Positions 1-15,064 of a stretch of DNA of 64,000 nucleotides are shown here, one piece after another (within the stretch, counting starts at the first letter, position 1; each line of letters starts with the position of its first letter). The DNA is from Anaerolineales bacterium (lineage in GTDB: Bacteria > Chloroflexota > Anaerolineae > Anaerolineales > UBA4823). The translations under genes were made by a program, and so were the position numbers. Under the pieces are notes generated by a model that was given only the letters and a program-made list of their open reading frames with translations, had not been told where the DNA came from and did not search any database. The DNA lies in contig JAOSJQ010000001.1 of NCBI GenBank assembly GCA_027494035.1, forward strand, positions 1,609,675 through 1,673,674. Reading direction: 5' to 3'.

Positions 1-827
1 GTCCGATCCACGATTACATCGTAATCGCCAAAACTGCGCGGGGGGTTGGCTTCAGGCTTGCGTTCGACCTTCACCAACTCGAACAATTTGTGCGCGAGGG
101 CATTACCCAGGTCGCTTTCATGTTTGAAGACGATCAATTTACGGGTCGCCATTTTGCCGCGCGCTGCCGAGCGGTCATGTTCGAACATTTCTTCCAATGC
201 TTTCCAGAATAGTTCTAGGTCTTCCTCAGAAAAGCCTGTGCCTTTGGTGGGATCGTTGGCAAGTTTGGCGGAGACGTAACCTTCAACACGATAAAGGGCA
301 TAAGGAACGATATGCTTACGTCCCATAGTGCGCTCTTTATCCGCATCTTCGATCTTGGTCACGGTTTGGCGGGTGATGGTTACTTCTTGCTGGACGATGG
401 GGTCAATACTGCGCGAGAAGTTGAGTTGTACGGGCCCGCGTACTTGTCCGCAGTTGTCGCCGGTGCTCATCACCGCGCCGAAGGTGCGGATGTCGAAGAA
501 ATTAGCACACATCCATGCGCGGGCATCGTTTACTTGAGCAGCGGAAGCCTTATCTTTTGTTTTCAAGCCGATGGCTTCATAGGCTTCTACGTGGTTCTGA
601 TTAAGGGGCGTGCCTTCTTTGACATAGATGCGATAGCCTTTTGAATCGCCCTTGATCAATTCGGCGTAATTGCGGACTTTGCGCTTGATCGCCACATCGG
701 TCACGATACCATAGCCCGTTTCGGGATCGATACGCGGCATGTTGCCCGCGTCGGGATCGCCGTTGGGATTGCCGTTCTCCACATCGTAGAGCACCACAAA
801 TTCATAGCGGTTAGAAATAGCGGTCAT
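1..827 (-). CDS. cas7: Cas7 (Csd2), type I-C Cascade backbone subunit; C-terminus runs off the left edge
   Basis: Absent from the ORF track because it is open to the window edge. My minus-strand translation from the ATG (complement of 825-827) reads MTAISNRYEFVVLYDVENGNPNGDPDAGNMPRIDPETGYGIVTDVAIKRKVRNY..., a typical Csd2/Cas7 N-terminus. It lies directly downstream of cas8c. Confidence 0.85.
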   Translation of the reverse strand, partial: MTAISNRYEFVVLYDVENGNPNGDPDAGNMPRIDPETGYGIVTDVAIKRKVRNYAELIKGDSKGYRIYVKEGTPLNQNHVEAYEAIGLKTKDKASAAQVNDARAWMCANFFDIRTFGAVMSTGDNCGQVRGPVQLNFSRSIDPIVQQEVTITRQTVTKIEDADKERTMGRKHIVPYALYRVEGYVSAKLANDPTKGTGFSEEDLELFWKALEEMFEHDRSAARGKMATRKLIVFKHESDLGNALAHKLFELVKVERKPEANPPRSFGDYDVIVDR

Positions 828-846: not shown

Positions 847-2736
847 TTAGTTGGTTTCGGTTGTTTCTTCTGAATTTTTATTTTTGACATAGAACGCCGC
901 GCGCTGGTGATAATAGCCAAGCACGAAGACGCCTTGTTCGTCTAATGTTAAACGCGCAGGGATGGGATTCTTTTCTACGTCAAGCAGATTCAAAATGTCC
1001 TGAATGCGGCGGTCGCTAACGTAGCCATATTCCGCTTTTGCAATGTGATGCTGCGAAAGCCGCAACAAAATTGGGAACACGGCGGCGGGCGAAGCGCAAG
1101 CCGACGTGAAATAGCGATCCTTGATGCTGGCGTTCACCTCCTTGCCGATGGCTTCCAATTGAGCCTTTTCAAGCACGGCAAACAGTCTCCCCAGCAAGTA
1201 GGCTGGAATAGTGGATTGCTCGTTAAGAGACATGACAAGTACCTCCTGAATTGGGTGTTGGGGTTGGTTTCGATATTTACGTTTGAGAAATGCCTTAATT
1301 ACAGAAGCCCGAATACGATTGACTTTTCTTATCTTTTTGTCTTCATCGTCCATATCCGCGCGAATACGGATCATTATGGCGTTGAATAAAGCGGCAGGAT
1401 ATGGAGAATTGGTAAGGATGGAACGAAAGACCGTCCCAGTGAGAAGCGGCGCAACTTTTTGTTCTCTTGACTTTTTTGATACAGTTTCGCGCAAAATCCA
1501 ACTTAACTTAATTGGCTTTTCGTCCTTCCCCAACTGTAAGTCGGAGTAATGTATTCCAATTCTTTGCACAAACTTTATGAATGGCTCTTTGTAAAAAAAG
1601 CGAATGGATGCGCGCCCGGGATTGGGCGCTTCAATGCCAAGAACATAAAAGTTTGCATTCCAATCTATTTCTTTGCTCAGTCCTTCCGCGTCTATTTTTT
1701 CGCCACGCCTTATTTTTTCTGCAATACTCCTTAATAGTTTTTCGCCCGCTTTATTTCTCGTGGGCGCATTTTCTGTCTGCTCGTTTACAGGTTCTTCAAA
1801 TTCTGCTTCCGTTAACCCAGCGAATAAAGAAGCGTATATCTGGTTGTCACTTTCAGCCCAATAAACAATCGTCGTATCATCAATAACAATTTTCTTGTTC
1901 TCGTTGGCGTCGGAGAGCAAATAGTTCAACGCCTTTGAGTAGGCTAACATTGCCTTTTTGCTAACGGGCGAGTTCAGCGCCTGCGCCTCCTTGCGATTAT
2001 AAGATTCGTAGGCAGGGGCATTAAAATTCACTAAAGCCACTCCACCATGATAGGGAGCGATTCCCTTAATTTTGATGTAGTGACGAGGGGCAATAGGCAC
2101 ATTCTCCTCGCCAGTTACAAGGCACTGACCGATATATTCATCGCTACTTGATTGATTATGAGCTTCCCATGCCTTACGAATTTTCTCGTTTTTATGGACA
2201 AACTCACCGTTTACTCTAAAAACGAACCTTGCCTTGCCAGCTTTCAGAATATCGCTTAAGTATTTAGCAATATACGGATCCTTTTTGCCATCAGCAGGAT
2301 CATACTTATCCAAAAAGGCTACTACAGCTTTTGCTTCAACACAGTCTGCTTTCGCAAGAATTTCTTTGTTGTACTCACGGAAGGCATTTAAACGCTGAGA
2401 ACTGTATTTTGGCTTTTCTTCATCTTCTGGCGAGATACCCAAGACATATGCGCTGTTATCGCAAAGAAAGTACGCGGGCGGATTTTTCCCAGAGCGTGCG
2501 GGTTGTTCTGGAACTATCATATTTAGCGGTTTATCCACCAGTTTTTTACCGCGTTGTACTTGCTGTGCAAGCGGGATGACGTTTTGCAAATCACCCTTTA
2601 CAGACAAATCCAGCGCATAACTGACTTCAACAACGCTGTAACCCGCTTGGGCGACATCGCTTTCTTCTTCATCTTCCTTGGTAGTAATTTCGTTCGACAA
2701 AATATCGTAATAACGCGCCAGCGCTTGCAGGATCAT
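847..2736 (-). CDS. cas8c: Cas8c (Csd1), type I-C large subunit
   Basis: ORF 847..2847. The likely true start is the internal Met ([14 protein letters not shown]...), which has a GGAGG SD and an ATGA overlap with the cas5 stop. Size and position between cas5 and cas7 fit Csd1. Confidence 0.8.
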
Positions 2737-3359
2737 CCTCGCACCTCCAGATTGGTCAAATCCAGCACGCCGTTTTTGAGAGAAGCGCGAAAGAACTGCC
2801 GCTTGATGTCTGCCGAATCGGAGAAATCCAGATCGTGCAACATCCAACCTAATTCCATATCGCCGAGCGGGCTGGACGGGATAGGTTCGCCGTCTTCGAT
2901 CAACTCCACCTTTGCGCCAAACTCGCGCGTTCCTAGACTCGGCGCGTGAAAATGCTGTCCCTTACGCAGGCGGCGCAGGATCATGTTGTAGTGCTTTTCT
3001 TTAGTGTCTTCTTCGCCCGCTTTATCAGTTAGATCGAAATGCGCTTCGATGACGTATTCCACATTTTTCAACACCAGCGCGGCGCGTTGCTGACGAATTT
3101 TCGTCGCTACCAGATAAGGTTTTCTTTCCGAAGCCTTTTCGCTCACCTCATTTCGCCGAATGTTAGTGAATTCAATCGGCTTCAAGACGTGGATTTTGTC
3201 GATTACCCAGCGGATAGCGGGCTTCCAATAGATCGCCTCGATGATGCCGCGCGCCGCCGATGGGGTGATAACGTCGTAACTGACGCGCTCCACCTTCATT
3301 TCAGGGCGGGTGAACAGGGCATAATCGCCGCTGACTCGGATTTTGATTCCGTATCCCAT
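2733..3359 (-). CDS. cas5: Cas5d (type I-C pre-crRNA endoribonuclease Cas5)
   Basis: N-terminus [49 protein letters not shown] is the Cas5d signature. An AGGAGG SD lies upstream. Confidence 0.88.
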
Positions 3360-3377
3360 AGAACGAACCTCCTTTTT

Positions 3378-6300
3378 TCAATCGAAGAAAACCGCGTCTC
3401 CGCCTGTGTCTGCAGGCAAGACGAGGCCGGTCTCCTGGTTATAAAACTCCAGGAGGCTATTTTCTATCAGAACCTGATATGTGTCATTAATTGTCTCGAT
3501 TACTCCTTTGCTCTGAAGTTTTTCAAATTCGTTTTCATAAATATTGACAGTGAACATCTGTAGTTGTCGGGCAAGGCTATATGGGTAGGGATGATATTTC
3601 GCCTGTTGAATCAGCTTTTTGGCTTCGTCGTTATAAGGAATAACAACGGCTATGGTATTCCTGTCAATTAACCTGAAATTCTCAGCCGCCGTCTTGAAGT
3701 CAAAGTCGAGTTCGCTCGTGCCTTTGTCGAAGTATGATAGTATTTTTCTCGCGTCGAAGGCCTCTTTGCTTTGCAGGTTATACAAGAAGTTGAAATAGTA
3801 TTCAATTGCTTCTTTCGAGTCGGTCTGCCCTGCAAAATCTCGCAAGGCACTCTCAGCCACCGCCGCGCCTTGCTTGATAAACGTAGGGGTCTTTTTGATG
3901 AAAGGCGTTTCAGGATCGAAGACGTACACGTCGCTGACTTCTCGCTTCATCTCGCGGTTCACGCGCCCCGCCGCCTGAATGATAGAATCCAAACCTGCCA
4001 GCGCGCGAAAGCCGACGGGAAAATCCACGTCAATGCCCGCTTCCATCACTTGAGTTGAGATCACGCGGCAAGTCTGATCCAGCTTTAGACGCTCTCGAAC
4101 TTCGGTCAAAACCTCCTTACGATGCATGGCGCACATCAACGTCGAAAGATGGAAACTTCCTTCCTCGTCCAACTGATCAAACAATCCTTTGGCGTGCTTG
4201 CGTGTGTTGACGATACACAGCGCCTGCGAATGCGCTTTTATCCTGTCTATCAGGTCTTCATCTGGCATCTTGCCAATATTCGTTACTTGTACGCGCTTAT
4301 AAAAATCGAACAGCGCCTGCGGATCAGGAGCAAGTTCAGTAAGAGTAACGTTGGGTAGACGCCGGTCCAGCGCGGGCTGGGTGGCTGTGCAAAAGACCGC
4401 GCTCGCTCCGTAGTTTGTTACCAATTCTTTGACAGCCAGCATACAGGGGTCTAAATATTCACGCGGCAACATTTGGGCTTCGTCAAAGATGATGACGCTC
4501 TTGGCTAGGTTGTGCAATTTACGGCAGCGAGACGATTTGTTGGCAAAGAGCGATTCGAAGAATTGCACATTGGTCGTGACGACGATTGGAATATCCCAAT
4601 TTTCAGAAGCCAACTTTAATTTGTCGAGCGCGTCTTTGGTTTGGTCATCGGCTGATTCCGAATCGGGCTTATCGCTCTTCTTCCAGTCAAAGTTGGAGTG
4701 ATGCTCCAACACGTTCTCGTCACCAAGATATTCTTTGAATACGGCGGCATTCTGTTCAATAATGCTTGTGAACGGAATGACGTAAATTACGTGCTTCAAT
4801 CCGTGCTTGACAGCATGGTTCAGCGCAAAGGCCATCGAAGCCAGAGTCTTTCCGCCGCCCGTGGGAATGGTCAGGGTGAAAAAAACCCTGTGGCGATTCC
4901 GCTTTTTCTTTACAGGCGTTGAGAGTCTCTGTCCGTTTCTTGTTGATGTCGCCTTGCGGGTTGTCGAACTTTTGCATGGCGAGATTGAACATCCCGCAAA
5001 GTTCTTCGATGCTGGCATATCCGCCGCGCGGCTTTTCGCTTTTATTCATGTAGGTTTCAGTTTCCTGAAAATCCGCATCTACCAGGGCAGAGAAAACCAT
5101 GCGCGTCAGGAAGGCAAACGAAAAGCCAGGATGTTTTTTGTCAGGCTTAATTCTCAAACGCGCAGGCAGGCTCAAATCAGCGGGACGGATTTCATTTTGG
5201 TACGCGCTGTAATCCTTCAAGGCTTTTTTCTCGACGCGCGATAAAAGCGTACCGTCACCGTCTACGTCGGCAGGGGAGCCATAATCTGGTAACCCCGTGT
5301 GATGACCCGCGATGCAGTATGCCAGCATGTCGGCAAGAAATTTCTGGTTTTGGTCTTTGTTGAATAATGCACGGATTTCCTTTGCTCCCGCTGTGGCGTG
5401 ATCTACCTTGCCTCCCGAACCATCCAATCGCCTTTGAAACTCTTTCGAGTATTTTCCAATATCGTGCAATAACGCGGCCATTTTCGCCAGTTCAGATATG
5501 CCTGCATCTGTACCAAAGGCTTCGGCTAAATTCGCCGTGTTATTCAAATGGTCTTTTAGCAATTGCCATCTGAATTTATCTTCTCCTTTGCGAGAGTGAG
5601 CGTAATAGAGCGTTTCTTCTATCTTTACCTCCCTCACCCCATACATCTCTACCAGCTTCCTTGCTTCCCGCTCGAGCGCCCTCCTCAGTCCTTCTGGCGC
5701 CAGCACCTCGCAATCCGCGCCCCAACCGCGCACCCAGGGGAGCATCTCCTGCCATTCAGCTACCTGGGCTTCCCATAACAACCCTCCATCGGGCTCTTCA
5801 GTCACTTTCTCGGTCTTATGCCAGACACTCTCGCGCAGTCGGCGGGCAGCAGGACCTGGTTTGAATCGCAGCCTCACGGTTTTCGGTTCGCTTTCGCTGC
5901 CCCAGATCCCCCAGGCATAACGGAGCAATTCTTCCTCATCGAAATCGAGCGGTAGATCGAAACGTGCAAGTTTTAATTCTGCTTTTTCAATCCGCTCGAT
6001 CTTGAAAGTTAAGGTCTTACCGAACTGTTCGCTGAAACCGATCAAATAAGCGCCATCCGTCCAGAGCGAGGGTTCAATAAGATATGGATGGACCAGGTGT
6101 TGGCGCGTTTCGCGGCTCTTCAAAGCTTTATATTGAACGTCCACTTTACGATGCTCTGCCCAGCCCCGCGTAATTGCTTCGAGCGCTTTCACCCGATTTG
6201 GATCTACATTTTGGGTTAGGATTTTGTCTGCTGCCTGGACTAAACGTTCTGTCATTGGCTGTTTCAAAGCCAGAGCAAGCTTTTCAAGTGCGCTGGCAAA

Positions 6301-6594
6301 GTGAGGTTGAGCGATGTGGGTCTGGCGGGAAGCGCGCCGCGTCGCCAGATAAAGCGCAAGCGTCTCATGCAGATTTACTTTAATATTGGGCATATAGCCT
6401 ATGCGATCCAAACGGTAGCGACCTGCACCCTCCTCGACAAAAGAGTGTTCTCGTTCCAACTCGGTACGATCGCGGTATACCGTGGTGCGGTCAACATCGA
6501 GACGGGCAGCCATTTCGATATCGGTGTAACCGCGCTGTAAGTAGAGCCAGATCATTTCCTGGAGTCGTTCTACCTTTGTGAATCCTTTCGCCAT
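3378..6594 (-). CDS. cas3: Cas3 (HD nuclease + SF2 helicase) with N-terminal HTH-WYL-WCX module; reading frame broken at an A7 run
   Basis: ORFs 4756..6594 and 3378..5018 join if one A is dropped from A7 at 4879-4885 (...KEKAESPQGFF|TLTIPTGGGKTLASMAF). HD motifs: LLHDIGK, GHHTGLPDY, LVDADF. Helicase motifs: GGGKT, IIFDEAQ, STQVMEAGIDVDF. The first ~330 aa read as wHTH + WYL + WCX. Confidence 0.8.
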
Positions 6595-6620
6595 TATTCT
6601 TCCTCCATTCCGATAATCCG

Positions 6621-6752
6621 GACAGGCGGTTTATTCCCCCGGGCAATTTTTCGTTCAAGAAGATTATATCTGTTTTTACATGCCAGACCTGCCAGCCGGG
6701 TTATTTCTGACAGGTCTGTAAGCTCGACAGGTCCCCTCAATGATCCTGTCAA
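6621..6752 (-). promoter_or_regulatory. Putative cas operon promoter/operator region with repeated GACAGG motifs
   Basis: Imperfect inverted repeat CAGACCTGCCAG (6684-6695) / CTGACAGGTCTG (6707-6718). Further GACAGG copies at 6621 and 6726, and CCTGTC at 6745. A minus-strand TATAAT lies at 6663-6668, about 70 nt upstream of the cas3 ATG. Confidence 0.35.
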
Positions 6753-7130
6753 CCAGCGATCCCTAATGAAATTAACACGTCAATGTTGCAGAATCTGCAA
6801 CATATCGGAAAACGTTTTTTTAATTGGAATAGACATAACTGACCGCACGACCTAAGACTCCAGCAAATTGCTCCTGTACCCCGCTTTGCTCCCCTACGCT
6901 CATCTCTAAAAATCCACCAGATTGCGTAGAACGTTTCCGCAATCATCGGATGACAAATCCCCCGCGCTGGGTTAGGCTTGGTCCTGAGCGTTCCGAGACC
7001 AAACTTAGGGCGCCAACGCCTCGTTCGGATCAGCGACTTGGATACCATTGTATAATGGGGGCGCTCGGCGTATGGGCAGCCTCACAAGTTATATCGACCA
7101 GCAGCGGCGGCTTGCCGCAAACGGAGAGGG

Positions 7131-7553
7131 ATGATGAAGATTACCGACGTGTTGCGCGTCGAGCACCAGCTTTTACACGTGATGGACGAGGCGATGGCTG
7201 AGTGGCTGGCAAAAGCCCCCGCAATCGCGGCAGTCGAGATGCGGGGGCGCACCAGCCTGCTTTACGCCGCTTTGGAAGATCACGCTCAACGCGAGGAGCA
7301 GTATTTGTTTGCGCATCTTCGTCCGCTTTCGGACCTGGCGCGCCACCTGGTCGATATGATGATCATCGTCCACGACGAGGTGCGCAGCTTGTTCGAAGAA
7401 GTCCAAACGGTGGAAAACCCGAAAGAGCAGATCTGGACGATTCTGGATCTCACGGAGACGCACTTCGTGAGGGAGAACGAGGAAGTGTTCCCCTTGGCTG
7501 AGGAATTGATGCCGGAGGAGCTTCTTTTAGAATTGGGAAAACAGGGCGGCTGA
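7131..7553 (+). CDS. Hemerythrin-like (HHE cation-binding) domain protein
   Basis: 140 aa, helical, with spaced His/Glu pairs (VEHQLLH, EEQYLFAHL, VHDEV, THFVRENEEVFP) as in hemerythrin-like metal-binding proteins. Confidence 0.65.
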   Translation: MMKITDVLRVEHQLLHVMDEAMAEWLAKAPAIAAVEMRGRTSLLYAALEDHAQREEQYLFAHLRPLSDLARHLVDMMIIVHDEVRSLFEEVQTVENPKEQIWTILDLTETHFVRENEEVFPLAEELMPEELLLELGKQGG

Positions 7554-7604
7554 ACCAAACCAGCCCCCTTCACTTATGAGGAGATCCGGAGGTACCTTAA
7601 ACAC

Positions 7605-8024
7605 ATGCCCCCTTTGACCCGTTGGTTTCTTAAAAGCTCGCTGTTGTTTTTTATCCTGAGTGTGCTGTTTGGATTGCTGCTGGCTGTACAAACGCCGTTG
7701 AAACTGCCCGCCAGCATCGTCGCCTTTAGCCCGGTTTATTTTCACCTGTTCATGGTCGGTTGGGTGGCGCAGTTGATTTTTGGCGTGGTATTTTGGATGT
7801 TCCCCAAGTATTCCAAGGAGAAACCGCGCGGCAGCGAATTGTTAGGCTGGATCGTGTTTGGGCTGCTCAACGTTGGTCTGGCGCTGCGCGTGATTGCCGA
7901 GCCAGCCCAGGCTTTGAACCCGGCTTTGGTGTGGAGCTGGCTGCTGGCGGTTTCGGCGGTGATGCAGTGGCTGGCGGGCATGATATTTGTCGCCAACACC
8001 TGGGGCAGGGTCAAGGAGCGTTGA
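7605..8024 (+). CDS. Small 4-TM membrane protein, paralogue A (function unknown)
   Basis: 139 aa hydrophobic ORF. Shares the motif H-x3-(F/M)-x-GW-x2-QL-x-G-x2-FW-x-P-x-(Y/F)-SK with the next gene. Confidence 0.6.
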   Translation: MPPLTRWFLKSSLLFFILSVLFGLLLAVQTPLKLPASIVAFSPVYFHLFMVGWVAQLIFGVVFWMFPKYSKEKPRGSELLGWIVFGLLNVGLALRVIAEPAQALNPALVWSWLLAVSAVMQWLAGMIFVANTWGRVKER

Positions 8025-8025
8025 G

Positions 8026-8436
8026 ATGCCGCGGCTGAGCATTTGGTTCATTCGGTCTGCCCTGACGTACCTGGTTTTGGGTTTCACCCTCGGAGCGTTG
8101 CTGCTTTTCAATAAGGGATTCCCGTTTTACCCATTCCTGTGGGGTTTACTGCCCTCGCACGTCGAGTTCGTTTTATTCGGCTGGACGGTGCAGCTGGTCA
8201 TGGGGATGGCGTTTTGGATTCTTCCCAGGTTCTCGAAGTCGCCCTTCCGCGGAAACGAAAAGCTGGCTTGGGGAACGTTCATTTTGATTAACGTCGGAAT
8301 CTGGCTGCATGTGCTGGGAACCATTGGATCGGGCAGCCAGTGGCTCGTCCTGACCGGCAGAGTTGCAGAAGCGCTGGGGATCGTGGTTTTTGCGGTCTAT
8401 TTATGGCCGCGGATCAAGGGGGTTGGCGCCCCCTGA
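8026..8436 (+). CDS. Small 4-TM membrane protein, paralogue B
   Basis: Starts at the internal Met MPRLSIWFIRSAL, 2 nt after the stop of paralogue A. Colinear similarity to 7605..8024 (MP.L..WF..S.L, GW..QL..G..FW..P..SK, NVG). Confidence 0.6.
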   Translation: MPRLSIWFIRSALTYLVLGFTLGALLLFNKGFPFYPFLWGLLPSHVEFVLFGWTVQLVMGMAFWILPRFSKSPFRGNEKLAWGTFILINVGIWLHVLGTIGSGSQWLVLTGRVAEALGIVVFAVYLWPRIKGVGAP

Positions 8437-8468
8437 CGGACGAGCGATGCCAGTTATTCCAGGCTGGG

Positions 8469-8831
8469 TCAAACCCTTGCCCGACCCGCCCAGAATTCGA
8501 TCCGGTGTCCTTCGGGATCGAACACGTAGAACACTTTAGCCCCCCAGACCTCTTTGATAACAGTTGGGCTCAACCCTGCGTCTTGTAAACAGGCGCGGGC
8601 AGCCGTGATCTCAGCCACTTGCAAGCCGATTGTGACCCCTTTTCCGTCCCCACTTTTGATGGATGTGCGCGATTCGTCTGCCACGCTCAGGCGGGAAGTA
8701 TTGGTCAAAATGAACTCGACGAACCATTCGGTATAGGCGTGTATCGGCAGCTTTAATCCGAAGCGATAAAAAGCCACCGTCTCTTCCCATTTTTTGCAGT
8801 ACAGAATTACGTTGGCTGTCTCGAAATGCAT
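8469..8831 (-). CDS. VOC / glyoxalase-family protein
   Basis: MHFETANVILYCKKWEETVAFY...VFYVFDPEGHRIEFW: the paired beta-alpha-beta-beta-beta pattern typical of the glyoxalase/bleomycin-resistance fold. Confidence 0.65.
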   Translation of the reverse strand: MHFETANVILYCKKWEETVAFYRFGLKLPIHAYTEWFVEFILTNTSRLSVADESRTSIKSGDGKGVTIGLQVAEITAARACLQDAGLSPTVIKEVWGAKVFYVFDPEGHRIEFWAGRARV

Positions 8832-8937
8832 GATGATATCCGCTCGTTTGATGATGGTAGGAATAATCCGAGAGGATACCATAGGTTGCAGCGAACCACC
8901 AATAAACCCCCAATTTCTCCTTGCGGATGACGTTTGA

Positions 8938-10060
8938 CTATTTGCTGCTGCTCATCCCCTTGCGCGCCGAGATCACGGTCACAACTAAGAACAAAATGAC
9001 CGCCACCTCGTTGAACAGCCCCCCAGCGACGGATCGACTGCGACAGCAGCAGGTCGCCGGCAATGCGCAGCGCTAGGGACAAGTGCAAAAGGCTCAAATG
9101 AACGTAAAAAACCGAGAGGTATTTTATCGGCACCCCCATCACGGCTGGAATGATCACCGGCGCGTGCCCAAAGATCATCGAAAACACAAATCCGATAAAG
9201 ATGGTGTGCAGCATCGCGTCGTAGATCGAACCCGCCGGATAACTGCCGCCAAAGATCATCCACAAGACGCCCCCCAGCGTCAGCCAGAGGTAACCGGGCA
9301 GCAGACAAGCCGCGATATAGCGGGTCAACCCTTGTTGACGGATCGTGTGCCGGGCAATATCGTAACGAAACAGCCATACCCCCAGAGCCGCCAGTCCAAA
9401 CCCGGCAATGCGGACACCCGCGTCAAAAGCCGCCAGGGAAACAAACAACCCGACCAGCACGATTCCGGTGATGACCAGGAAAAGTGTGCGAACAGTTTTC
9501 GTAAGAACCAGCACCCGCGTCAACTCGAGCCGCTCGCCCGCGATGGTCAATACCAGGAACGCAGCCCACCACGGCGCCACCCGAAACACCGGCAGCCCAG
9601 CCATCCAGAGCGCGTTCCCCACCAGCCACAGAAAAACGCCCAGACCCATCACAGCCGAGTGCGTGGCGGGCTGCAGGCGATAGATGATGATAAAAATGAT
9701 GAGGAACCCTAACGCAGCCAGTGTAATCAATAGATGCGGCACAAAAATGGGTACCGGGAAAAACAGCGCCACACCCCCCAACCCCGCCAACAGAGGCACC
9801 AGATAATAAATCCGTCGCCCATGTTGCAGTTGACTCAGCGCCACCGCCCGCTCCAGGCTGATCAAGGTCCCCAGGAAGCCGGCGACCATCAGCGGTCCGT
9901 GTTCGAGTAACACTTGGGTGGAGATGGATGGGATTTGCCAGCCAATGCGCAGCAAACCCGCCCACAGCCCAGCCACGAGCGCGCTGAGCGACAAAACCAT
10001 CAGCGGTATACGCAGCCGGCTGCGTTTCGCAAAAGGTGAGCCAGTAATATTGAACGCCAT
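8938..10060 (-). CDS. Polytopic membrane protein (about 10 TM; uncharacterised, found in NO-response contexts); frameshift at a C6 run
   Basis: ORF 8807..10060 has a non-membrane-like tail. Dropping one C from C6 at 9009-9014 gives ...RRWGLFNEVAVILFLVVTVISARKGMSSSK* ending at 8938 and removes the overlap with the glyoxalase gene. Conserved His: LEHGPLMVAGF, FGHAPVIIPAV. Confidence 0.55.
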
Positions 10061-10112
10061 TTTTAAGGCAACTCTCTTGAATTAAAATTCACTGCGTGCA
10101 GTTTCGTTCGCC

Positions 10113-10150
10113 CCGCCTGTCAGAGGTCAAGTTTCGCCTCTGACAGGCGG
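10113..10150. promoter_or_regulatory. Perfect 14-bp inverted repeat (hairpin) between two minus-strand genes
   Basis: CCGCCTGTCAGAGG (10113-10126) - 10 nt - CCTCTGACAGGCGG (10137-10150). No convincing U-tract on either strand. Confidence 0.4.
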
Positions 10151-10163
10151 AGAAATAGCCTGA

Positions 10164-10397
10164 TTATTGGCTGCGCCCGATGCGCACGCGCCAGGTTTCA
10201 GGACCTGATTCCAGGTATTCCCAGGAAAACTCGCCGGTCCGCTCAGCTTGAAATTGATAATAGAGCGGCTTGGGATCGTGGTCATTCACCAGGATAAACC
10301 CCTCCCCGTGCGGCAGGTTATCGAACCGTTCGAAGATCATGGGGTGTCGCTGCGCCGGGGGAATGCTGCGAATATCCAGTAACGAATCGTTGCTCAT
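10164..10397 (-). CDS. DUF2249-like small protein
   Basis: 77 aa. IPPAQRHPMIFERFDNLPHGEGFILVNDHDPKPLYYQF resembles the DUF2249 family that accompanies hemerythrin/NO genes. Confidence 0.6.
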   Translation of the reverse strand: MSNDSLLDIRSIPPAQRHPMIFERFDNLPHGEGFILVNDHDPKPLYYQFQAERTGEFSWEYLESGPETWRVRIGRSQ

Positions 10398-10414
10398 CTT
10401 AAATCTCCTTTTAC

Positions 10415-10681
10415 CTATATTGATTTGGCGGGCTCTTTGCGGATCAAATAATGATATTCACGCTTCCAGAAGTGCCCGATTTTCTCTGCGTTTAAGATCG
10501 TATTCCCGGAACGGGCTGCCCAGTCCGTAAGCTCCTTCTGCGAAGCTGCGTCAGTGCTGAGGACTGCCAGGGTTTCTCCGGGGGCAAGGGCTTCCATTTT
10601 ATCCAAAAGTTCGACAAAGCCGGCAGCGCAGTTGCTGCCGCGGTTATCCAGGGTTTGGGTAGCAGCCGATAAATCGTTCAT
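10415..10681 (-). CDS. TusA/SirA-like small protein (non-canonical Cys motif)
   Basis: 88 aa. LDNRGSNCAAGFVELLDKMEALAPGETLAVLSTD follows the TusA LDxRGxxCPxP...G..L.v..d pattern, but with CAAG instead of CPxP. Confidence 0.5.
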   Translation of the reverse strand: MNDLSAATQTLDNRGSNCAAGFVELLDKMEALAPGETLAVLSTDAASQKELTDWAARSGNTILNAEKIGHFWKREYHYLIRKEPAKSI

Positions 10682-10684
10682 AGG

Positions 10685-11662
10685 TCACGCATCTTTCTGG
10701 TAAAGATCGTCGATCTTGCACATGCCCGAAATGGGCGAGCAGGCGCGCCACATCGGGCAGGTGATAAAGACGACGATGAGGACGCCCACGAGGAGGATTT
10801 TGGTCAAGATCAACAAACCGAAAGTGGAGGTTGTCAGCGCGGTAAAGCTCAACCCGACATAGCGGTAAGCCTGGATGAGACCCGTGACAATCAACGTGGG
10901 CAGGATGATGCGCACTGCAACCCGAAAGCGTTCGAGCTGCTGGCTGGCGGCTAAAACCACCGGCAGCGAAACAATCGAACGCGCTGCTGGGACGGTGATA
11001 AAAATATTCCACACCGCGCCGCCAAACCACAAGCTAAAGGCAGCCAGGTGTATCCCGCGCACCAGCAGCGGCAAGGGCTGTCCACCTTGGGTCAGGAACA
11101 CGTCAAAAGTTGCTTGGACAAACGCATTGATTACCAACAGAGCCAGCAGCAACCGGGCGGTGAGGCGCTCGCTGAAAGGATCGTCCGGTTTGACGCGCCG
11201 GAAAATGTCAAAGCCAGCAGCCAACGCAATGGCTGCGAGTAAGATCGCCTCGAACCAGACCAACCCGCCCGCGATCCCCCAGCGCGCAAAACGGAGCAGG
11301 TCATAGCCGGCGGTCAGGATGAACACCGGTAAAGCAAATTGCATCAGTTTGCGGAAACGGGCAAACTCGCCCGTGGTAAAGCGCGCAAAAGCGGAGCGAT
11401 GTTCGGGGCGCTCTGCCGGTTCGGTGAACAGCGCCTTCCACATGGTTCCCCCAGCCAGAAAGGCGAAGCTGACCAGGTGCAGCCAGCGCGGGATAACCTG
11501 CAGCCAGGCGCCTGCGCCGTGAGTGGTCATTGTCAGCCAGACGCCGACAAAAGAAGCGATGCTGATAACGGTCAGCGCTACCTTGGGCAGTACGTATTTA
11601 TCCAGCAGGTGCGTCGAAGCCGTTACCGGAACGGAGGATTGGATCGTGTTTGTATTGTTCAT
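10685..11662 (-). CDS. Polytopic membrane protein, tentatively CopD-like
   Basis: True start is probably MNNTNTIQ, with an ATGA overlap with the mrp stop at 11659-11662. About 8 TM; HLVSFAFLAGG..W and HLAAFSLWFGGAVW repeats resemble CopD-type His-containing helices. The functional call is weak. Confidence 0.45.
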   Translation of the reverse strand: MNNTNTIQSSVPVTASTHLLDKYVLPKVALTVISIASFVGVWLTMTTHGAGAWLQVIPRWLHLVSFAFLAGGTMWKALFTEPAERPEHRSAFARFTTGEFARFRKLMQFALPVFILTAGYDLLRFARWGIAGGLVWFEAILLAAIALAAGFDIFRRVKPDDPFSERLTARLLLALLVINAFVQATFDVFLTQGGQPLPLLVRGIHLAAFSLWFGGAVWNIFITVPAARSIVSLPVVLAASQQLERFRVAVRIILPTLIVTGLIQAYRYVGLSFTALTTSTFGLLILTKILLVGVLIVVFITCPMWRACSPISGMCKIDDLYQKDA

Positions 11663-12722
11663 GATTCGATCTCCAGAACCGCCTGGGTTAAGCCCAGGCG
11701 ATCCACAACAGACTGGGCAAGGTCGTGGAACACTGCGCTTGAGGTTGTTTTCGGGTCGAGAACCGCGGGCAGCCCTCGATCCGAGTCCTCGCGGATCGCC
11801 GTCTCCAGGGGCAGCTCCGCCAGCAGCGGCAAACCGAATTCGTCTGCCAGCTTCTTGGCGCCGCCCTGACCGAAGATATGGTGCAGGTGGTCGCAATCGG
11901 GGCAGCGGAAATAGCTCATGTTCTCGACCAGTCCAAACACAGGTACGTTGACTTTCTGGAACATTGTCAAGCCTTTGCGGGCGTCATCCAGGGCAACTGG
12001 CTGCGGCGTGGAGACGATGATCGCTCCGCTGATGGGTATTCGCTGCGAGAGCGACAGTTGGGCGTCGCCGGTTCCCGGCGGCAGATCCACGATCAGGACA
12101 TCCAACTCCCCCAATCCACTTCTTGCAGGAACTCCCGAATGGCTTTGTCGATCATTGGTCCCCGCCAAATGACTGGGGCGTCTTTTCCGGCAAAACCCAA
12201 AGACATTACTTTGACGCCATGGGCTGTGGCAGGCGCCAGCCTGCCGTTAACCGCCGGCGGAAGCTTTTCAACCCCTAACATGCGCGGGATATTGGGCCCG
12301 TGGATATCGGCATCCAGCAAGCCCACCCGCAACCCGAATTGAGCCAGCATCACTGCCAGGTTGACCGCCACGGTGCTCTTCCCCACCCCGCCTTTGCCCG
12401 AAGCGATCGCCACAACGTGCTGGATCCCCGGGATCCTTTCGGGTTCCGGCGCGCCGGTAGTGACCTTGCGGGATGGGGCGGGTTTGCCGACTTGTAACTG
12501 CACTTCTTCCACACCGGGCACCGCGAGCGCAGCCCGGGTCACCTCGGCGGCGATCGCGCGCTGAGTATCTTCCGGCAGGTTTGCGATCACCAGACCGATT
12601 CTGGCGGTTGCGCCTTCCATTAGAACGCCGTGCACCAATCCAAACGAAACGATATCGCGCGAAAAGCCCGGATATTTCACTTCGCGCAGCGCACGGAAAA
12701 CGGCATCTTTGATCGTATCCAT
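11659..12722 (-). CDS. mrp: Mrp/ApbC/NBP35-family Fe-S cluster carrier ATPase with N-terminal DUF59; frameshift at a C5 run
   Basis: ORFs 12093..12722 and 11659..12168 join if one base is added to C5 at 12108-12112 (...FLQEVDWG|ELDVLIVDLPPGTGD). Walker A SGKGGVGKST; CPDC metal-ligand motif. Confidence 0.85.
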
Positions 12723-12740
12723 GACTTATCTTCCGATCCC

Positions 12741-13064
12741 TCACAAACCCAACTGGGCGCGCCCTTTGGGGGAAATCATCAGCGAGTTCCAGGGCGGATC
12801 CCAAACGAGCTCAACCGAGACGCCGGTGATGCCCGGAACCGAGCGCCACAACACCCGCTCGATTTCTTGCGCAAAACTGGCATGGAGCGGGCAGCCGGGT
12901 GTAGTGAGAGTCATTACAATTTTAAGGCGGCCTTCCTCCGTGATCTCTGTGCTGTAGATCAGACCCAGATCAACGATGTTGATCCCCAATTCGGGGTCGA
13001 TGACTTCCGACAACGCCGCGGTGATCAGCTCTTCTACAATGGGGGTGGATAACAGTTCGGTCAT
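12741..13064 (-). CDS. DUF59 / SufT-like Fe-S assembly protein
   Basis: MTELLSTPIVEELITAALSEVIDPELGINIVDLGLIY...TLTTPGCPL is the classic DUF59 (MIP18) signature. Confidence 0.75.
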   Translation of the reverse strand: MTELLSTPIVEELITAALSEVIDPELGINIVDLGLIYSTEITEEGRLKIVMTLTTPGCPLHASFAQEIERVLWRSVPGITGVSVELVWDPPWNSLMISPKGRAQLGL

Positions 13065-13285
13065 ATATCGCTCCCCAGCACAATCTGGTACGGCAAGGAG
13101 ATCGCCTCGACTGGACAGATTGACTCGCAGATCCCACAGTAGTTGCATGCCTCCGGGTCTGCGACGGCCGCAACGTTTGTGGTGAAGAGCTCCAGGACAT
13201 CTGTAGGGCAGGCGTCGACGCAATCGCCGCAACCCGTGCAGACTTCGTCATCGATTTGAGGGGTCCAGATTGTCATATCATTCAT
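13061..13285 (-). CDS. 2x[4Fe-4S] ferredoxin
   Basis: Two CxxCxxCxxxCP motifs (CTGCGDCVDACP, CNYCGICESICP). ATGA overlap with the DUF59 gene. Confidence 0.8.
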   Translation of the reverse strand: MNDMTIWTPQIDDEVCTGCGDCVDACPTDVLELFTTNVAAVADPEACNYCGICESICPVEAISLPYQIVLGSDI

Positions 13286-13377
13286 CGTTCACCAATTCCT
13301 TTTCTTAGCAAACTCATAGCCGTCTGCCAGCCACTTGTTTGCTGCTACCAGGATAACTGGTGAAAAAAACTTCTGCC

Positions 13378-13391
13378 TTGATATTAATCAA
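13378..13391. promoter_or_regulatory. Perfect FNR/Dnr-type box TTGATATTAATCAA
   Basis: Matches the TTGAT-N4-ATCAA consensus exactly. Lies just past the nirK stop, about 93 nt upstream of the ferredoxin ATG (13285, minus strand). Confidence 0.65.
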
Positions 13392-13398
13392 GTGCGCG

Positions 13399-14892
13399 TT
13401 ATGGGTTTGCCGGTCCCTTACGAAAGATGTCGGGTTGTTCCGGTCCTTCCACGACCAGATAGCCTACCAGACCGCGCTCCGTGCGGCTGAGTGCATGATC
13501 CACCAGAAGATAGGTCCCCGGAACATCCACGCGAAACTCGACCATGACCGCGCCGCCAGGCGGAACGGTTACGGTTTGTACATTAGTCAAAGGAGCGCTG
13601 GTGAGCGAGGCGAAGCTGTACACCCGATCGAAGATTTCACCGATGACGTGGAACGACGAGGTCTTGTTCGGACCGCCAACGCCGAAGAAAATGCGCACGA
13701 CCTCGCCCACTTTGGCGGTGAGGACGTTTTCGTCTTTCGTCAGACCTTTATCTGACCCGTTAAAGATGTAATATTCGGGCATCTCGTGGCTCATCTTATC
13801 GGCGCTGAAATCGAGCTGCCCCGTTGAGCCATAAGCCTGTTCGGTATACAGTTCGCCCTGCATAACGTAATATTCCTTATCAACCGGCGGCAAACCTTCT
13901 TCCGGCTCGACCAGGATCATGCCGTACATGCCGTTGCTGATGTGGTGCGGTACGCTGGGCGTGGCGCAATGATAGACATACAAGCCCACCGCTAACGGCT
14001 TGAAGGTGAAAACATTTTCTTCCCCGGGTTTGGTTTCGGTATAGACCATCCCTCCGCCAGGACCGTTGACTGCGTGCAGATCGATCGAATGCGAAAACAG
14101 GCTTTCAGCCGCGTTGGACAGTTTCAATTCGACGGTATCGCCCAGGCGGACGCGCAACATGGGGCCCGGCACGGTGCCGTTGAAGGTGAAGTAACCGTAA
14201 GTTGTGCCATCGGACAACTGACCGATCACTTCCTTGGCTTCCAGTTCGACCCTTACAATTTGCGGTTCGCGTTCGCCGATCTCCGCCGGGATATCCGCGG
14301 GATGATGGACAACGTTCTCGCCCTGGGCAACCTGAGCTGTCGTTCCAGAGGCTGCCTCCCCCACTTGCAGCGTCCCCCACATGCCTGCCTGGCGATGACC
14401 CGGGACCGCGCAGTAATAGACGTAGCTGCCCGCCTGATCGACCGTGAACTTCAGCGTTACTTGCGTTCCTTTTTCTGTCATTTGACCGGTGGTTTGGTTG
14501 AACTCATCAATCGTCAGGTCGTGCAGCATGCCATCGCCATTGATCACGGTGATTTCAACCGTGTCTCCGGGTTTGGCGGTCAGGGTGGGGTTGACAACCC
14601 CGTCAATGTCGCCGCCTTTACCGATGAAAGCCAACCCATACGTGTCGCTGCTGGTTACCAACGTGTAAGAGACATTCGCCTCGGTTTGGGCTATGGGTTC
14701 GGCTTGTTGGGCTTGCGGCTCCGATGGTTGAACTTGCGCCGCTGGTTGTTGGGCTATTGGCGCCGGTTGTTGGAGCGTTTTCTTTTCTTTTGTGGTGGGC
14801 GGTGGAGTGATCGTGCTGCTTTTTCCCGCACATGCACTGAGAACAAAGACGGCTGCCAGCAAAAGCCCGATCATGTTTCTAGTAGCTTTCAT
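13399..14892 (-). CDS. nirK: Copper-containing nitrite reductase NirK with N-terminal lipoprotein signal and extra cupredoxin domain
   Basis: Lipobox LSAC. N-terminal cupredoxin YVYYCAVPGHRQAGMWGTLQV. NirK core HSIDLHAVNGPGGG and YVYHCATPSVPHHISNGMYGMILVEP. Confidence 0.85.
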   Translation of the reverse strand: MKATRNMIGLLLAAVFVLSACAGKSSTITPPPTTKEKKTLQQPAPIAQQPAAQVQPSEPQAQQAEPIAQTEANVSYTLVTSSDTYGLAFIGKGGDIDGVVNPTLTAKPGDTVEITVINGDGMLHDLTIDEFNQTTGQMTEKGTQVTLKFTVDQAGSYVYYCAVPGHRQAGMWGTLQVGEAASGTTAQVAQGENVVHHPADIPAEIGEREPQIVRVELEAKEVIGQLSDGTTYGYFTFNGTVPGPMLRVRLGDTVELKLSNAAESLFSHSIDLHAVNGPGGGMVYTETKPGEENVFTFKPLAVGLYVYHCATPSVPHHISNGMYGMILVEPEEGLPPVDKEYYVMQGELYTEQAYGSTGQLDFSADKMSHEMPEYYIFNGSDKGLTKDENVLTAKVGEVVRIFFGVGGPNKTSSFHVIGEIFDRVYSFASLTSAPLTNVQTVTVPPGGAVMVEFRVDVPGTYLLVDHALSRTERGLVGYLVVEGPEQPDIFRKGPANP

Positions 14893-15064
14893 TACAGTCT
14901 TTCCCTTCTCATCCTAAGAATATCTAAAGTCTGATTTTCTGAGGCGCTTGTGTTGCACACTTGATCCTCAGCCGGTCGATTAAAGAATCAAACGCTGCCG
15001 AGGCGCGAACCAAACAAGCCCCAAAACAACGATGTAAGCTTAGGTAATTAATTCGGATGTGTAA

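What the first reader, a model, noticed from the sequence alone, without database searches (positions are those of the whole stretch)
3378..6594. Complete HTH-WYL-WCX transcription-factor module read in-frame with Cas3 of a type I-C system
The first ~330 aa of ORF 4756..6594 read as a whole PafBC/CapW/BrxR-type regulator. It has a wHTH (YTDIEMAARLDVDRTTVYRDRTELE), a WYL barrel (VHPYLIEPSLWTDGAYLIGFSEQFGKTLTFKIERIEKAE) and a WCX domain (WGIWGS..VRLRF..LPWVRGWGADCEVLAPEGLR). The frame then runs without a stop into the Cas3 HD domain (LYYAHS.., LLHDIGK, GHHTGLPDY). WYL regulators beside CRISPR/defence loci are established; I am not aware of a characterised full regulator fused to the effector nuclease-helicase. 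Such a fusion would put ligand sensing or operator binding on Cas3 itself. Caveat seen in the sequence: the junction codons are atg tat ggg gtg agg gag gta. If the C4 run at 5637-5640 is really C3, the regulator ends ...EMYG-TGA, followed by a GGGAGG SD. That is the same over-call type seen in lipA and the CBS gene. The result would be a tightly coupled but separate WYL gene, although cas3 would then lack a canonical start codon.
Basis: partly seen in the sequence, partly recalled or inferred. Interest (0 to 1): 0.65.

Follow-up and report, generated by a model that had tools for sequence, protein, structure and literature searches.

The report
Real WYL regulator–Cas3 fusion protein
The CRISPR nuclease-helicase Cas3 of this type I-C system really does carry a complete DNA-binding, signal-sensing regulator at its front end; this fusion is widespread in Chloroflexota, was noted once in 2014 and has never been studied.

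Summary
Window 3378..6594 (-) encodes one 1071-aa protein. It has a wHTH, a three-helix bundle, a WYL and a WCX domain (residues 1-318), a roughly 10-residue flexible linker, and then a complete type I-C Cas3 with intact catalytic motifs. An independent 99.5%-identical metagenome contig has the same G4 run at the junction. All 114 full-length homologues (54-75% identity) read through in frame. The only defect is one extra T in a T7 run (4879-4885). This is almost certainly an assembly error, because two neighbouring genes are broken the same way. The regulator module is closest to the ssDNA-activated activators DriD and PafBC, not to CapW or BrxR. In Chloroflexota the same module is fused to I-C and I-E Cas3 and sits as a separate, translationally coupled gene before I-G Cas3. 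It recombines freely relative to the Cas3 body. A conserved palindrome, TGTTGCA-N5-TGCAACA, lies exactly 9 nt upstream of a TAnnnT -10 hexamer (window 6784-6802). The likely function is ligand-controlled autoregulation of the cas operon, but which protein binds the palindrome is not settled. WYL-Cas3 fusions were mentioned in one sentence in 2014 and remain uncharacterised.

The parts
3378..6594 (-). The whole fused gene: wHTH-3HB-WYL-WCX regulator module plus type I-C Cas3. It gives 1071 aa once one spurious T is removed.
   Evidence: P0001 (1071 aa) from a 99.5%-identical contig is 100% identical to the repaired N-terminal 624 residues used as query, and 100% identical to window residues 1-572 by tblastn.
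6409..6576 (-). Winged helix-turn-helix (residues 7-62). The recognition helix is VDRTTVYRDR; R36 is invariant and R43 is at least 90% conserved.
   Evidence: AF2 models, Foldseek full-length match to DriD, alignment invariants.
6217..6372 (-). Three-helix-bundle linker (residues 75-126), as in DriD.
   Evidence: Helices 75-91, 97-110 and 113/115-126 in both models. DriD domain map from PMC13004042.
5962..6186 (-). WYL beta-barrel (residues 137-211).
   Evidence: PF13280 above its cutoff. Y183 is at least 90% conserved; E174, P175 and R201 are invariant.
5641..5883 (-). WCX domain (residues 238-318).
   Evidence: PF25583, 61.7 bits. The motif WGIW...WxRGWG is invariant.
5605..5640 (-). Linker (residues 319-330), including the G4 run at 5637-5640. 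Its sequence varies, its length is short (about 7-25 aa in the family), and model confidence is low.
   Evidence: alignment of 114 homologues; pLDDT below 50 at residues 321-326; no difference from the independent contig.
5035..5604 (-). Cas3 HD nuclease domain (residues 331-520). The metal-ligand residues H377, D378, H399, H431, H432, D506 and D508 are invariant.
   Evidence: Solved I-C Cas3 chains 8zns_A and 8g9u_P begin at this point.
4879..4885 (-). T7 run (A7 on the + strand) that breaks the frame just before the Walker A motif. The run is T6 in the independent contig.
3378..4878 (-). Cas3 SF2 helicase and C-terminal domain (Walker A GGGKT, DEAQ, TATQP, QAAGRxNR).
6784..6802 (.). Perfect palindrome TGTTGCAGAaTCTGCAACA, the conserved candidate operator. 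It is the only match in the 64 kb.
6769..6774 (-). TAATTT, a -10-like TAnnnT hexamer exactly 9 nt downstream of the palindrome.
   Evidence: In 49 of 61 loci TAnnnT sits at +9, and no other offset has more than 3.
6684..6718 (-). 12-nt inverted repeat (CAGACCTGTCAG-N11-CTGGCAGGTCTG) in the presumed leader. It lies next to a second GACAGG/CCTGTC hairpin and a TATAAT at 6663-6668. Its function is unknown.
   Evidence: (RNA fold z = -2.9); no Rfam match.
2733..3359 (-). cas5c.
   Evidence: TIGR01876, 180 bits.
847..2736 (-). cas8c (csd1). The likely start is the ATG at 2736, which overlaps the cas5c stop.
   Evidence: TIGR01863, 372 bits.
1..827 (-). cas7 (csd2), cut by the window edge. Coordinates are approximate.
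   Evidence: Collinearity with L001 (Cas_Cas7 at 15722-16588).

Best explanation
One gene encodes one polypeptide. A complete DriD/PafBC-type transcription factor (wHTH, three-helix bundle, WYL, WCX) is tethered by a short flexible linker to a catalytically intact type I-C Cas3. Shown here: the fusion is genuine, is under purifying selection in both halves, and belongs to a large, almost exclusively Chloroflexota family. In that family the same regulator 'head' is fused to I-C and I-E Cas3 and sits as a separate, translationally coupled gene directly before I-G Cas3. Inferred: the head dimerises through WYL/WCX and binds the conserved palindrome TGTTGCA-N5-TGCAACA. This palindrome occupies the -35/spacer position of the operon promoter, always 9 nt from the -10 hexamer. 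The head responds to a nucleic-acid ligand, most likely ssDNA by homology with DriD, PafBC and CapW, by switching cas operon transcription on. Because the sensor is attached to the enzyme that makes ssDNA, Cas3's own products, phage replication or DNA damage could feed back on cas expression. Regulator dosage is also locked to Cas3 dosage. The frameshift in the window copy is an assembly artefact.
For: Fusion is real: more than 120 clusters, 100% coverage, 1056-1091 aa, all with WYL+WCX+HD+DEAD; independent contig, same G4, intact ORF; 114 of 114 in frame. Both halves are conserved and catalytic residues are invariant. Module identity: (DriD E = 3.5e-16 over 335 columns; PafBC about 1e-13; CapW and BrxR about 1e-7). 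Flexible tether and independent folding. Portability: I-C, I-E and I-G contexts; Cas3 types intermixed in the N-module tree, and the I-C and I-E copies of one MAG are sisters; N versus C identity correlation r = 0.28; pairs at 37% N / 89% C and at 88% N / 57% C. Operator: (palindrome or half-site in most loci; TAnnnT at exactly +9 in 49/61 and 46/52); of 120 exact metagenome matches, 57 precede a WYL gene; the 36 with neither regulator gene mostly lie in coding DNA and lack the -10. The window and at least 8 other lineages keep the palindrome although they lack the small wHTH gene present elsewhere. Literature: DriD sites sit at a fixed distance from the -10 in promoters without a -35, and ssDNA is the ligand (PMC13004042, PMC9186387). 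CapW and BrxR also sense ssDNA (PMC11662680). Artefact status of T7: (three genes within 14 kb are broken at homopolymers only in the window).
Against: No experiment exists for any member. The protein that binds the palindrome is not identified. 69 of 81 related loci also encode a roughly 68-aa wHTH protein between the palindrome and the WYL gene. Loci with a divergent WYL-module HTH (P0106 type) keep the same palindrome. One lineage has the palindrome plus the small wHTH and no WYL gene. Only some DriD ssDNA-contact residues are conserved: Y155, Y183, F197, K198 and R201 match, while the equivalents of R204 and R178 do not. The activator-versus-repressor direction rests only on the closer fold match to DriD and PafBC. 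The free recombination of head and body argues that no co-adapted allosteric interface exists, so 'in cis' sensing of Cas3 products is speculative.
Confidence: 0.6

Rival explanations
1. The fusion is an artefact. A homopolymer over-call (C4 instead of C3 at 5637-5640) joins a separate WYL regulator gene to cas3.
For: The window does contain homopolymer indel errors. With G3 the regulator would end at TGA, overlapping a GTG.
Against: The independent contig has the same G4. All 114 homologues at 54-75% identity, from many assemblies and sources, are in frame with no stop. Among loci complete enough to judge, every HD-first Cas3 in the 80 genome loci is joined to the module; the two interrupted copies, L008 and L026, look like frameshifts.
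Confidence: 0.02
2. The N-terminal module does not act mainly as a transcription factor. Instead it acts on Cas3 itself: as an accessory ssDNA-binding or loading module (as the WYL domain does in Thermotoga PIF1), as a dimerisation device, or as a ligand-gated autoinhibitor of the nuclease.
For: The WYL domain of TePif1 is an accessory ssDNA-binding module (bioRxiv 10.1101/163188). The fusion is universal for HD-first Cas3 in this clade, which suggests more than co-expression. WYL/WCX regulators are dimers, so the fusion should dimerise Cas3.
Against: The wHTH, including its recognition helix, is as conserved as the rest of the module. A conserved operator sits in the promoter. The same module works as a separate protein in I-G loci. 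Head and body recombine freely and the linker is short, variable and low-confidence, so no fixed interface is conserved. This role could coexist with regulation.
Confidence: 0.2
3. The palindrome is the operator of the small 68-aa wHTH protein or of another factor. The fused HTH binds elsewhere, or only non-specifically.
For: The small wHTH is present in 69 of 81 loci, directly downstream of the distal palindrome. The palindrome is unchanged in loci whose WYL-module HTH is divergent. One lineage has the palindrome and the small wHTH without a WYL gene.
Against: The window and at least 8 other lineages keep the palindrome and its -10 spacing without the small gene. Two strongly divergent small-wHTH types (s13 and s21) share the same outer half-sites, and R36 of the WYL-module recognition helix is invariant. 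A second site directly upstream of the WYL gene has the same +9 geometry.
Confidence: 0.25
4. The cas3 copy in this organism is a true pseudogene: the T7 frameshift is real and the I-C system is dead in this strain.
For: The window and the JGI contig are different strains (65 SNPs; cas8c only 56% identical). Homopolymer slippage is a common way to inactivate a gene.
Against: Two other conserved genes within 14 kb are also frame-broken only in the window, only at G-runs, and are otherwise 99-100% identical at the protein level. Apart from the one extra T, the gene is 100% identical to P0001 up to the break and 93.9% identical after it, and no in-frame stop interrupts the alignment.
Confidence: 0.12

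Closest known systems
WYL-Cas3 fusions as noted by Makarova, Anantharaman, Grishin, Koonin and Aravind 2014 (Front Genet 5:102, PMC4012209)
   Same: The same architecture: a WYL domain fused to a Cas3 made of an HD domain plus an SF2 helicase in type I systems.
   Different: That paper gives one sentence, with no subtype, taxon, operator or full module description in the text I could read. Here the fused part is a full wHTH-3HB-WYL-WCX factor, on I-C and I-E Cas3, with a conserved promoter palindrome.
DriD (Caulobacter crescentus), PDB 8tp8, 9pfv and 7tzv
   Same: Best sequence match (E about 1e-6) and best fold match (E = 3.5e-16, full length). Same domain order and size (319 versus 327 aa), including the three-helix bundle. 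It binds a roughly 21-bp pseudo-palindrome at a fixed distance from the -10 in promoters lacking a -35, and ssDNA is its ligand.
   Different: 21-23% identity. DriD is a free-standing homodimer that controls DNA-damage genes and is not fused to an enzyme. Its operator sequence differs (ATACGAC-N7-GTCGTAT).
PafBC (actinobacteria), PDB 6sj9, 9fnd and 7p5x
   Same: A WYL activator that binds just upstream of the -10 and replaces -35 recognition. It is activated by ssDNA.
   Different: It has a tandem or heterodimeric architecture, regulates a DNA-damage regulon, and gives a weaker match (about 1e-12 to 1e-13).
CapW and BrxR (defence-island wHTH-WYL-WCX repressors)
   Same: They are encoded at the head of immune operons, bind roughly 20-bp palindromes in their own promoters, and are released by ssDNA.
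   Different: They have a two-helix linker and a domain-swapped dimer. The fold match is much weaker (about 1e-7; 11-16% identity). They are never fused to the effector.
Characterised type I-C Cas3 (PDB 8g9u_P, 8zns_A)
   Same: The Cas3 body aligns from residue 4 of the query region (E about 1e-110). The operon is the same: cas3-cas5c-cas8c-cas7.
   Different: The solved proteins start at the YAHS motif and lack the 320-residue N-terminal module.
Thermotoga elfii PIF1 helicase with a C-terminal WYL domain
   Same: A helicase covalently joined to a WYL domain that binds ssDNA.
   Different: It has the WYL barrel only, at the C-terminus, with no HTH or WCX and no regulatory role proposed.

Membership tests
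wHTH-WYL-WCX transcription factors (DriD/PafBC branch) | N-terminal winged HTH | tested here: met
   Pfam gives only sub-threshold hits (HTH_23, E = 0.0014). The AF2 model shows H-H-H-beta-beta at residues 7-62, and the Foldseek alignment to DriD covers the full length.
wHTH-WYL-WCX transcription factors (DriD/PafBC branch) | WYL beta-barrel | tested here: met
   PF13280, 33.9 bits against a cutoff of 21.8.
wHTH-WYL-WCX transcription factors (DriD/PafBC branch) | WCX C-terminal extension (dimer domain) | tested here: met
   PF25583, 61.7 bits against a cutoff of 23.9.
wHTH-WYL-WCX transcription factors (DriD/PafBC branch) | Three-helix-bundle linker (activator branch) rather than a two-helix linker (CapW/BrxR) | tested here: met
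   Three helices at residues 75-126 in both models. DriD and PafBC rank above CapW and BrxR by 6-9 orders of magnitude in E-value.
wHTH-WYL-WCX transcription factors (DriD/PafBC branch) | Binds a palindromic site in the promoter it controls | tested here: inconclusive
   A conserved palindrome at fixed +9 spacing to the -10 was found. A second wHTH protein in most relatives could be the binder instead.
wHTH-WYL-WCX transcription factors (DriD/PafBC branch) | ssDNA (or nucleotide) ligand bound by the WYL domain | tested here: inconclusive
   Equivalents of DriD Y168, Y192, W206, R207 and R210 are conserved (Y155, Y183, F197, K198, R201). Equivalents of R204 and R178 are not. Binding itself cannot be tested with these tools.
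wHTH-WYL-WCX transcription factors (DriD/PafBC branch) | Homodimer | not testable with these tools
   Only monomer models could be made.
Type I-C Cas3 | N-terminal HD nuclease with metal-ligand residues | tested here: met
   TIGR01596, 117 bits. H377, D378, H399, H431, H432, D506 and D508 are invariant in 88 sequences.
Type I-C Cas3 | SF2 helicase core with Walker A and DExx motifs | tested here: met
   TIGR01587, 131.6 bits. GGGKT, DEAQ, TATQP and QAAGRxNR are invariant.
Type I-C Cas3 | Operon with cas5c, cas8c and cas7 | tested here: met
   TIGR01876 and TIGR01863. cas7, cas4 and cas1 follow in the collinear contig.
Type I-C Cas3 | Uninterrupted reading frame in this window | tested here: not met
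   One extra T at 4879-4885. The frame is intact in the 99.5%-identical contig, and two neighbouring genes show the same kind of break, so this is judged an assembly error.
WYL-Cas3 fusion proteins (Makarova 2014) | WYL and Cas3 HD plus helicase in one polypeptide | tested here: met

The most novel reading that the evidence does not exclude
Cas3 here would be a 'trigger enzyme': the effector nuclease-helicase is itself the ssDNA-sensing transcription factor of its own operon. Interference, which generates ssDNA, would then feed back directly on cas expression, including the adaptation genes. This sensor head would also be a portable cassette, carrying its own palindrome-plus-minus-10 promoter, that Chloroflexota repeatedly swap between I-C, I-E and I-G effector modules.
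Probability: 0.35. Interest if true: 0.7.

Novelty: new member of a known kind. Interest (0 to 1): 0.55.

Why it matters
How type I CRISPR-Cas systems decide when to express a dangerous processive nuclease is poorly understood outside a few model organisms. Here a whole bacterial phylum has attached a full ligand-sensing transcription factor to that nuclease, in two subtypes. It has also kept a precisely phased operator in the promoter. If the head regulates the operon in response to ssDNA, it would be a minimal, self-contained feedback circuit linking interference to expression. It would also be a natural example of a DNA-binding and ssDNA-sensing domain fused to Cas3, which is relevant to engineering I-C Cas3 deletion tools. 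The palindrome, the promoter geometry and the isolated N-module are directly testable in vitro.

Tried and rejected
1. Junction artefact (C4 versus C3): rejected by the independent contig and 114 in-frame homologues.

2. Internal start or programmed frameshift at G GGG TGA / GGGAGG: many homologues have a Met about 9 residues before YYAHS, but the window has Arg there. The motif is not conserved and no properly spaced SD exists (by inspection). Not pursued further.

3. Direct comparison with the JGI contig worked instead.

4. Rfam on the 5' region: no match.

5. tblastn for the small wHTH gene in the window: absent.

6. Literature searches for 'WYL-Cas3', 'fused to Cas3', and WYL+Cas3+Chloroflex*: nothing beyond the 2014 sentence. 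The 2025 CRISPR classification paper does not mention it. The 2014 supplement (truncated copy) gave no listing of the fused proteins.

7. Covariation between HTH type and palindrome variant, to identify the binder: inconclusive.

8. Metagenome scan for the exact palindrome: it separated true promoter sites (57 of 75 with the -10) from chance or coding matches (5 of 36), but it did not separate the WYL gene from the small wHTH, because the two nearly always co-occur.

9. No CRISPR array lies in the window.
Full report
OBSERVATION

On the minus strand, ORF 4756..6594 (612 aa) and ORF 3378..5018 (546 aa) overlap in different frames.
- Pfam and NCBIfam place four features in the first ORF: a weak HTH (residues 9-41), WYL (137-206, above threshold), WCX (238-314, above threshold), and the Cas3 HD domain (346-512, TIGR01596, 117 bits).
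- The second ORF holds the Cas3 helicase core (TIGR01587) and the Cas3 C-terminal domain.
- cas5c (2733..3359) and cas8c (847..2736) follow. cas7 runs off the window edge.
- The two cas3 ORFs are separated by a single extra base in a T7 run (A7 at 4879-4885 on the + strand). With T6 the sequence reads ...QGFFTLTIPTGGGKT, which is Walker A, and the gene is exactly 1071 codons.

IS THE FUSION REAL?

A search with the repaired N-terminal 624 residues returned more than 120 protein clusters. They have 54-100% identity, 100% query coverage and lengths of 1056-1091 aa. Each carries WYL, WCX, HD, DEAD and Cas3_C domains. Where named, they come from Anaerolineales or Chloroflexota MAGs and are labelled simply 'Cas3'.

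The top hit, P0001, is 100% identical to the 624-residue repaired query and is 1071 aa long.
- Its source contig (JGI Ga0130016_10001502) is 99.5% identical to window 2696..16591.
- A base-by-base comparison shows T6 where the window has T7.
- It shows no difference at the junction run G4 (5637-5640).

In a MAFFT alignment of 114 full-length homologues, every sequence is in frame through the junction. The linker is variable in sequence and is mostly 8-10 residues long, with a family range of about 7-25.

The T7 frameshift is very probably an assembly error. Two other genes within the same 14 kb are intact in the JGI contig: an Mrp/ParA-like gene and a 374-aa gene. In the window both are broken at G-runs while remaining 99-100% identical at the protein level.

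WHAT THE N-TERMINAL MODULE IS

- By sequence, the nearest solved structures are DriD (E about 1e-6) and PafBC.
- An AF2 model of residues 1-319 (pLDDT 78.8) shows a wHTH, three helices (75-126), a WYL barrel and a WCX domain.
- Foldseek against the PDB ranks DriD first (E = 3.5e-16, aligned over the full length). PafBC follows at about 1e-13. CapW and BrxR come in at only about 1e-7.
- The module is thus a complete transcription factor of the DriD/PafBC (activator) branch, with nearly the same size and layout as DriD (PMC13004042).
- A full-length model (pLDDT 81.8) folds both halves confidently and leaves residues 321-326 below pLDDT 50. This indicates a flexible tether.
- Solved I-C Cas3 proteins (8zns_A, 8g9u_P; E about 1e-110) start where the linker ends, so the 320 residues are an add-on.
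- In an 88-sequence alignment both halves are strongly conserved. [quoted passage not shown]

DISTRIBUTION AND EVOLUTION

A scan of one genome per species found 439 contigs encoding a relative of the module. Among the 80 best retrieved, nearly all are Chloroflexota: Anaerolineae, Caldilineae, Ardenticatenaceae, Promineifilaceae and Chloroflexus.

Classes among the 80 best loci (10 of the 80 are cut by a contig end):
- About 30 are fused to I-C Cas3 (1058-1157 aa; cas5c and cas8c downstream).
- 17 are fused to a different Cas3 with a Cas3_C domain (1168-1248 aa). In the locus examined (L010) cse1, cse2, cas7e, cas5e and cas6e follow, so this class is I-E.
- 20 are separate 320-378-aa genes. Most of these end within a few nucleotides of, or overlap, a helicase-first, HD-last Cas3g-like gene (I-G-like). 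Four have no cas genes downstream.
- L065 is a WYL-HD protein of 524 aa followed by a separate helicase.
- Two interrupted copies (L008, L026) look like frameshifts.

So the head is fused whenever Cas3 begins with its HD domain, and it is adjacent when Cas3 begins with its helicase.

An exhaustive HMMER search of 1.84 billion representatives gave 6212 hits, 273 of them below 1e-30. The top 150 mix roughly 1050-1290-aa fused forms with roughly 320-350-aa free forms.

In an NJ tree of the heads, the I-C, I-E and free classes are intermixed. The I-C and I-E copies of a single MAG are sisters.

Within the I-C-fused family, head and body identities are almost uncorrelated (r = 0.28). Some pairs are 37% identical in the head and 89% in the body; others are 88% in the head and 57% in the body. 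The window's own head is 83% identical to P0003, while the Cas3 bodies are 58% identical. The junction is therefore a recombination boundary between two self-contained modules.

A CONSERVED CIS-ELEMENT

K-mer enrichment in the 300 bp upstream of the heads picked out TGTTGCAGAATTCTGCAACA-like words: 49 of 80 loci against 7-8 of 72 controls.

Distal site:
- Most loci have a near-perfect palindrome, TGTTGCA-(g)TAC(y)-TGCAACA.
- The outer six bases of each arm are essentially invariant.
- In 49 of 61 non-redundant loci a TAnnnT hexamer lies exactly 9 nt downstream. No other offset scores above 3.
- The palindrome thus sits where a -35 and spacer would be. This is the geometry reported for DriD and PafBC promoters, and it is equally compatible with a repressor.

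Second site:
- A site with a conserved left half (AAAATGTTGCAGAATTC) and a TGn-extended -10 at the same +9 spacing lies directly upstream of the head in 52 of 83 loci.

In the window:
- There is one site, the perfect palindrome at 6784-6802. It is the only match in 64 kb, with 0.02 expected by chance.
- TAATTT follows 9 nt later, at 6769-6774.

Metagenome test:
- A scan for the exact 19-mer returned 120 matches: 55 precede a small wHTH gene plus a WYL gene, 2 precede a WYL gene alone, and 2 precede a small wHTH gene alone.
- 36 have neither gene. These lie mostly inside unrelated coding sequence, and only 5 have the -10, against 57 of 75 for the rest. They look like chance matches.

COMPLICATION

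In 69 of 81 loci a roughly 68-aa wHTH protein (weak MarR-like) is encoded between the distal palindrome and the head. The window and its sister contig lack it.

Evidence that the fused head binds the palindrome:
- At least 9 lineages, including the window, keep the palindrome and its spacing without the small gene.
- Two very different small-wHTH types share the same outer half-sites.
- The head's recognition helix is conserved.

Evidence that the small protein binds it:
- Loci whose head has a divergent HTH keep the same palindrome.
- One lineage has the palindrome plus the small wHTH without a head.

I cannot resolve this with sequence data. Both proteins may use the site.

MECHANISM

Established by the analyses here:
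- The product is a single polypeptide.
- Both modules are under selection.
- The tether is flexible.
- The head is modular and portable.
- A phased operator lies in the promoter.

Inferred from homology with DriD, PafBC and CapW:
- The head dimerises.
- It binds the palindrome.
- It switches transcription in response to ssDNA.

Several DriD ssDNA-contact positions are conserved (Y155, Y183, F197, K198, R201) and others are not. The ligand assignment is therefore probable, not certain.

The attractive idea that Cas3's own ssDNA products are sensed in cis is speculation. The free recombination of head and body argues against a co-adapted interface, though not against simple proximity effects. 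An accessory role of the head in ssDNA loading or in Cas3 dimerisation, as with the WYL domain of PIF1, may coexist with regulation.

COMPARISON WITH WHAT IS KNOWN, AND NOVELTY

Makarova et al. [quoted passage not shown] The PIF1-WYL preprint repeats this. I found no characterisation, no subtype or taxon description and no operator in the searchable literature, including the 2025 classification update.

The window gene is therefore a member of a noted but unstudied kind. The following appear to be additions from this analysis:
- The full DriD-like module.
- Its restriction to Chloroflexota.
- Its pairing with three Cas3 architectures.
- The head-body mosaicism.
- The phased palindrome.

VERDICT

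The artefact caveat moves from the junction to the T7 run. Interest is moderate (0.55). The result is not categorically new, but it describes a widespread, testable and unusual coupling of a ligand-sensing transcription factor to the CRISPR effector nuclease.

Noticed in passing
Related loci, e.g. L021:1464-1670, L078, L013; absent from the window: A conserved roughly 68-aa wHTH ORF (MARKxxDERLExIYxxVxxHPGxKPGFIARLLGLNRSEVTRxLP...; a second type reads MFGxKQ...ISQxELARxLGVxRSTVxKDL) lies between the distal palindrome and the WYL gene in 69 of 81 loci. Its function is unknown. It may be a co-regulator or the true palindrome binder.
   Followed up: partly
Related loci, the roughly 45-65 nt between the distal palindrome and the small ORF (alignment): The leader contains an inverted repeat that pairs CCTCC with the GGAGG Shine-Dalgarno of the small ORF (for example tgCCTCCCGTAcAGTGG...CCACaaTACGGAGGca). 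Changes that look compensatory occur between loci (L008, L013). It looks like an SD-sequestering hairpin. This was not tested with a covariance model.
   Followed up: no
window 847-2800 versus L001 13780-15702: Cas8c is only 56% identical between two strains whose DNA upstream (cas5c, cas3 and 10 kb beyond) is 99.5% identical. cas7 is about 90% identical. There is a sharp recombination breakpoint at the cas5c/cas8c boundary, consistent with swapping or diversifying selection of the PAM-reading large subunit.
   Followed up: partly
window about 12108-12114 and about 9020-9025: An Mrp/ParA-like Fe-S assembly gene and a 374-aa gene are frame-shifted at G-runs in the window but intact in the 99.5%-identical JGI contig. 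This is systematic homopolymer error in this assembly. Any other 'fusion' or 'split' in this window that hinges on a homopolymer should be distrusted.
   Followed up: yes
L073 and L077 (contigs CAYXXF010000004.1 and CAYXXF010000003.1, same MAG): One Anaerolineales genome carries both an I-C and an I-E system, each with a WYL-Cas3 fusion, and the two heads are each other's closest relatives. This suggests intragenomic duplication or exchange of the head between subtypes.
   Followed up: partly
L065:10001-11575: A 524-aa protein with the WYL module plus the HD domain only, followed by a separate DExH helicase ORF. It is either a WYL-Cas3'' fusion with a split Cas3' or another frameshifted assembly.
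   Followed up: no
window 6684-6752 (-): Two adjacent hairpin-forming inverted repeats built on GACCTGTC/GACAGGTC lie in the presumed 165-nt leader of the fused gene (RNA fold z = -2.9). They are followed by a perfect TATAAT at 6663-6668. They were not looked for in relatives and their role is unknown; possibilities include a second promoter or operator, an attenuator, or a relic.
   Followed up: partly
L001:17300-23216 (beyond the window's left edge): In the sister contig, cas1 is followed directly by RAMP-domain genes (a type III-like module) and no cas2 gene was called between them.
   Followed up: no
window 34138-34198: A short 12/24-nt tandem repeat (CAACCACTCCTC, about 5 copies), probably a coding low-complexity stretch. 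It was not examined.
   Followed up: no
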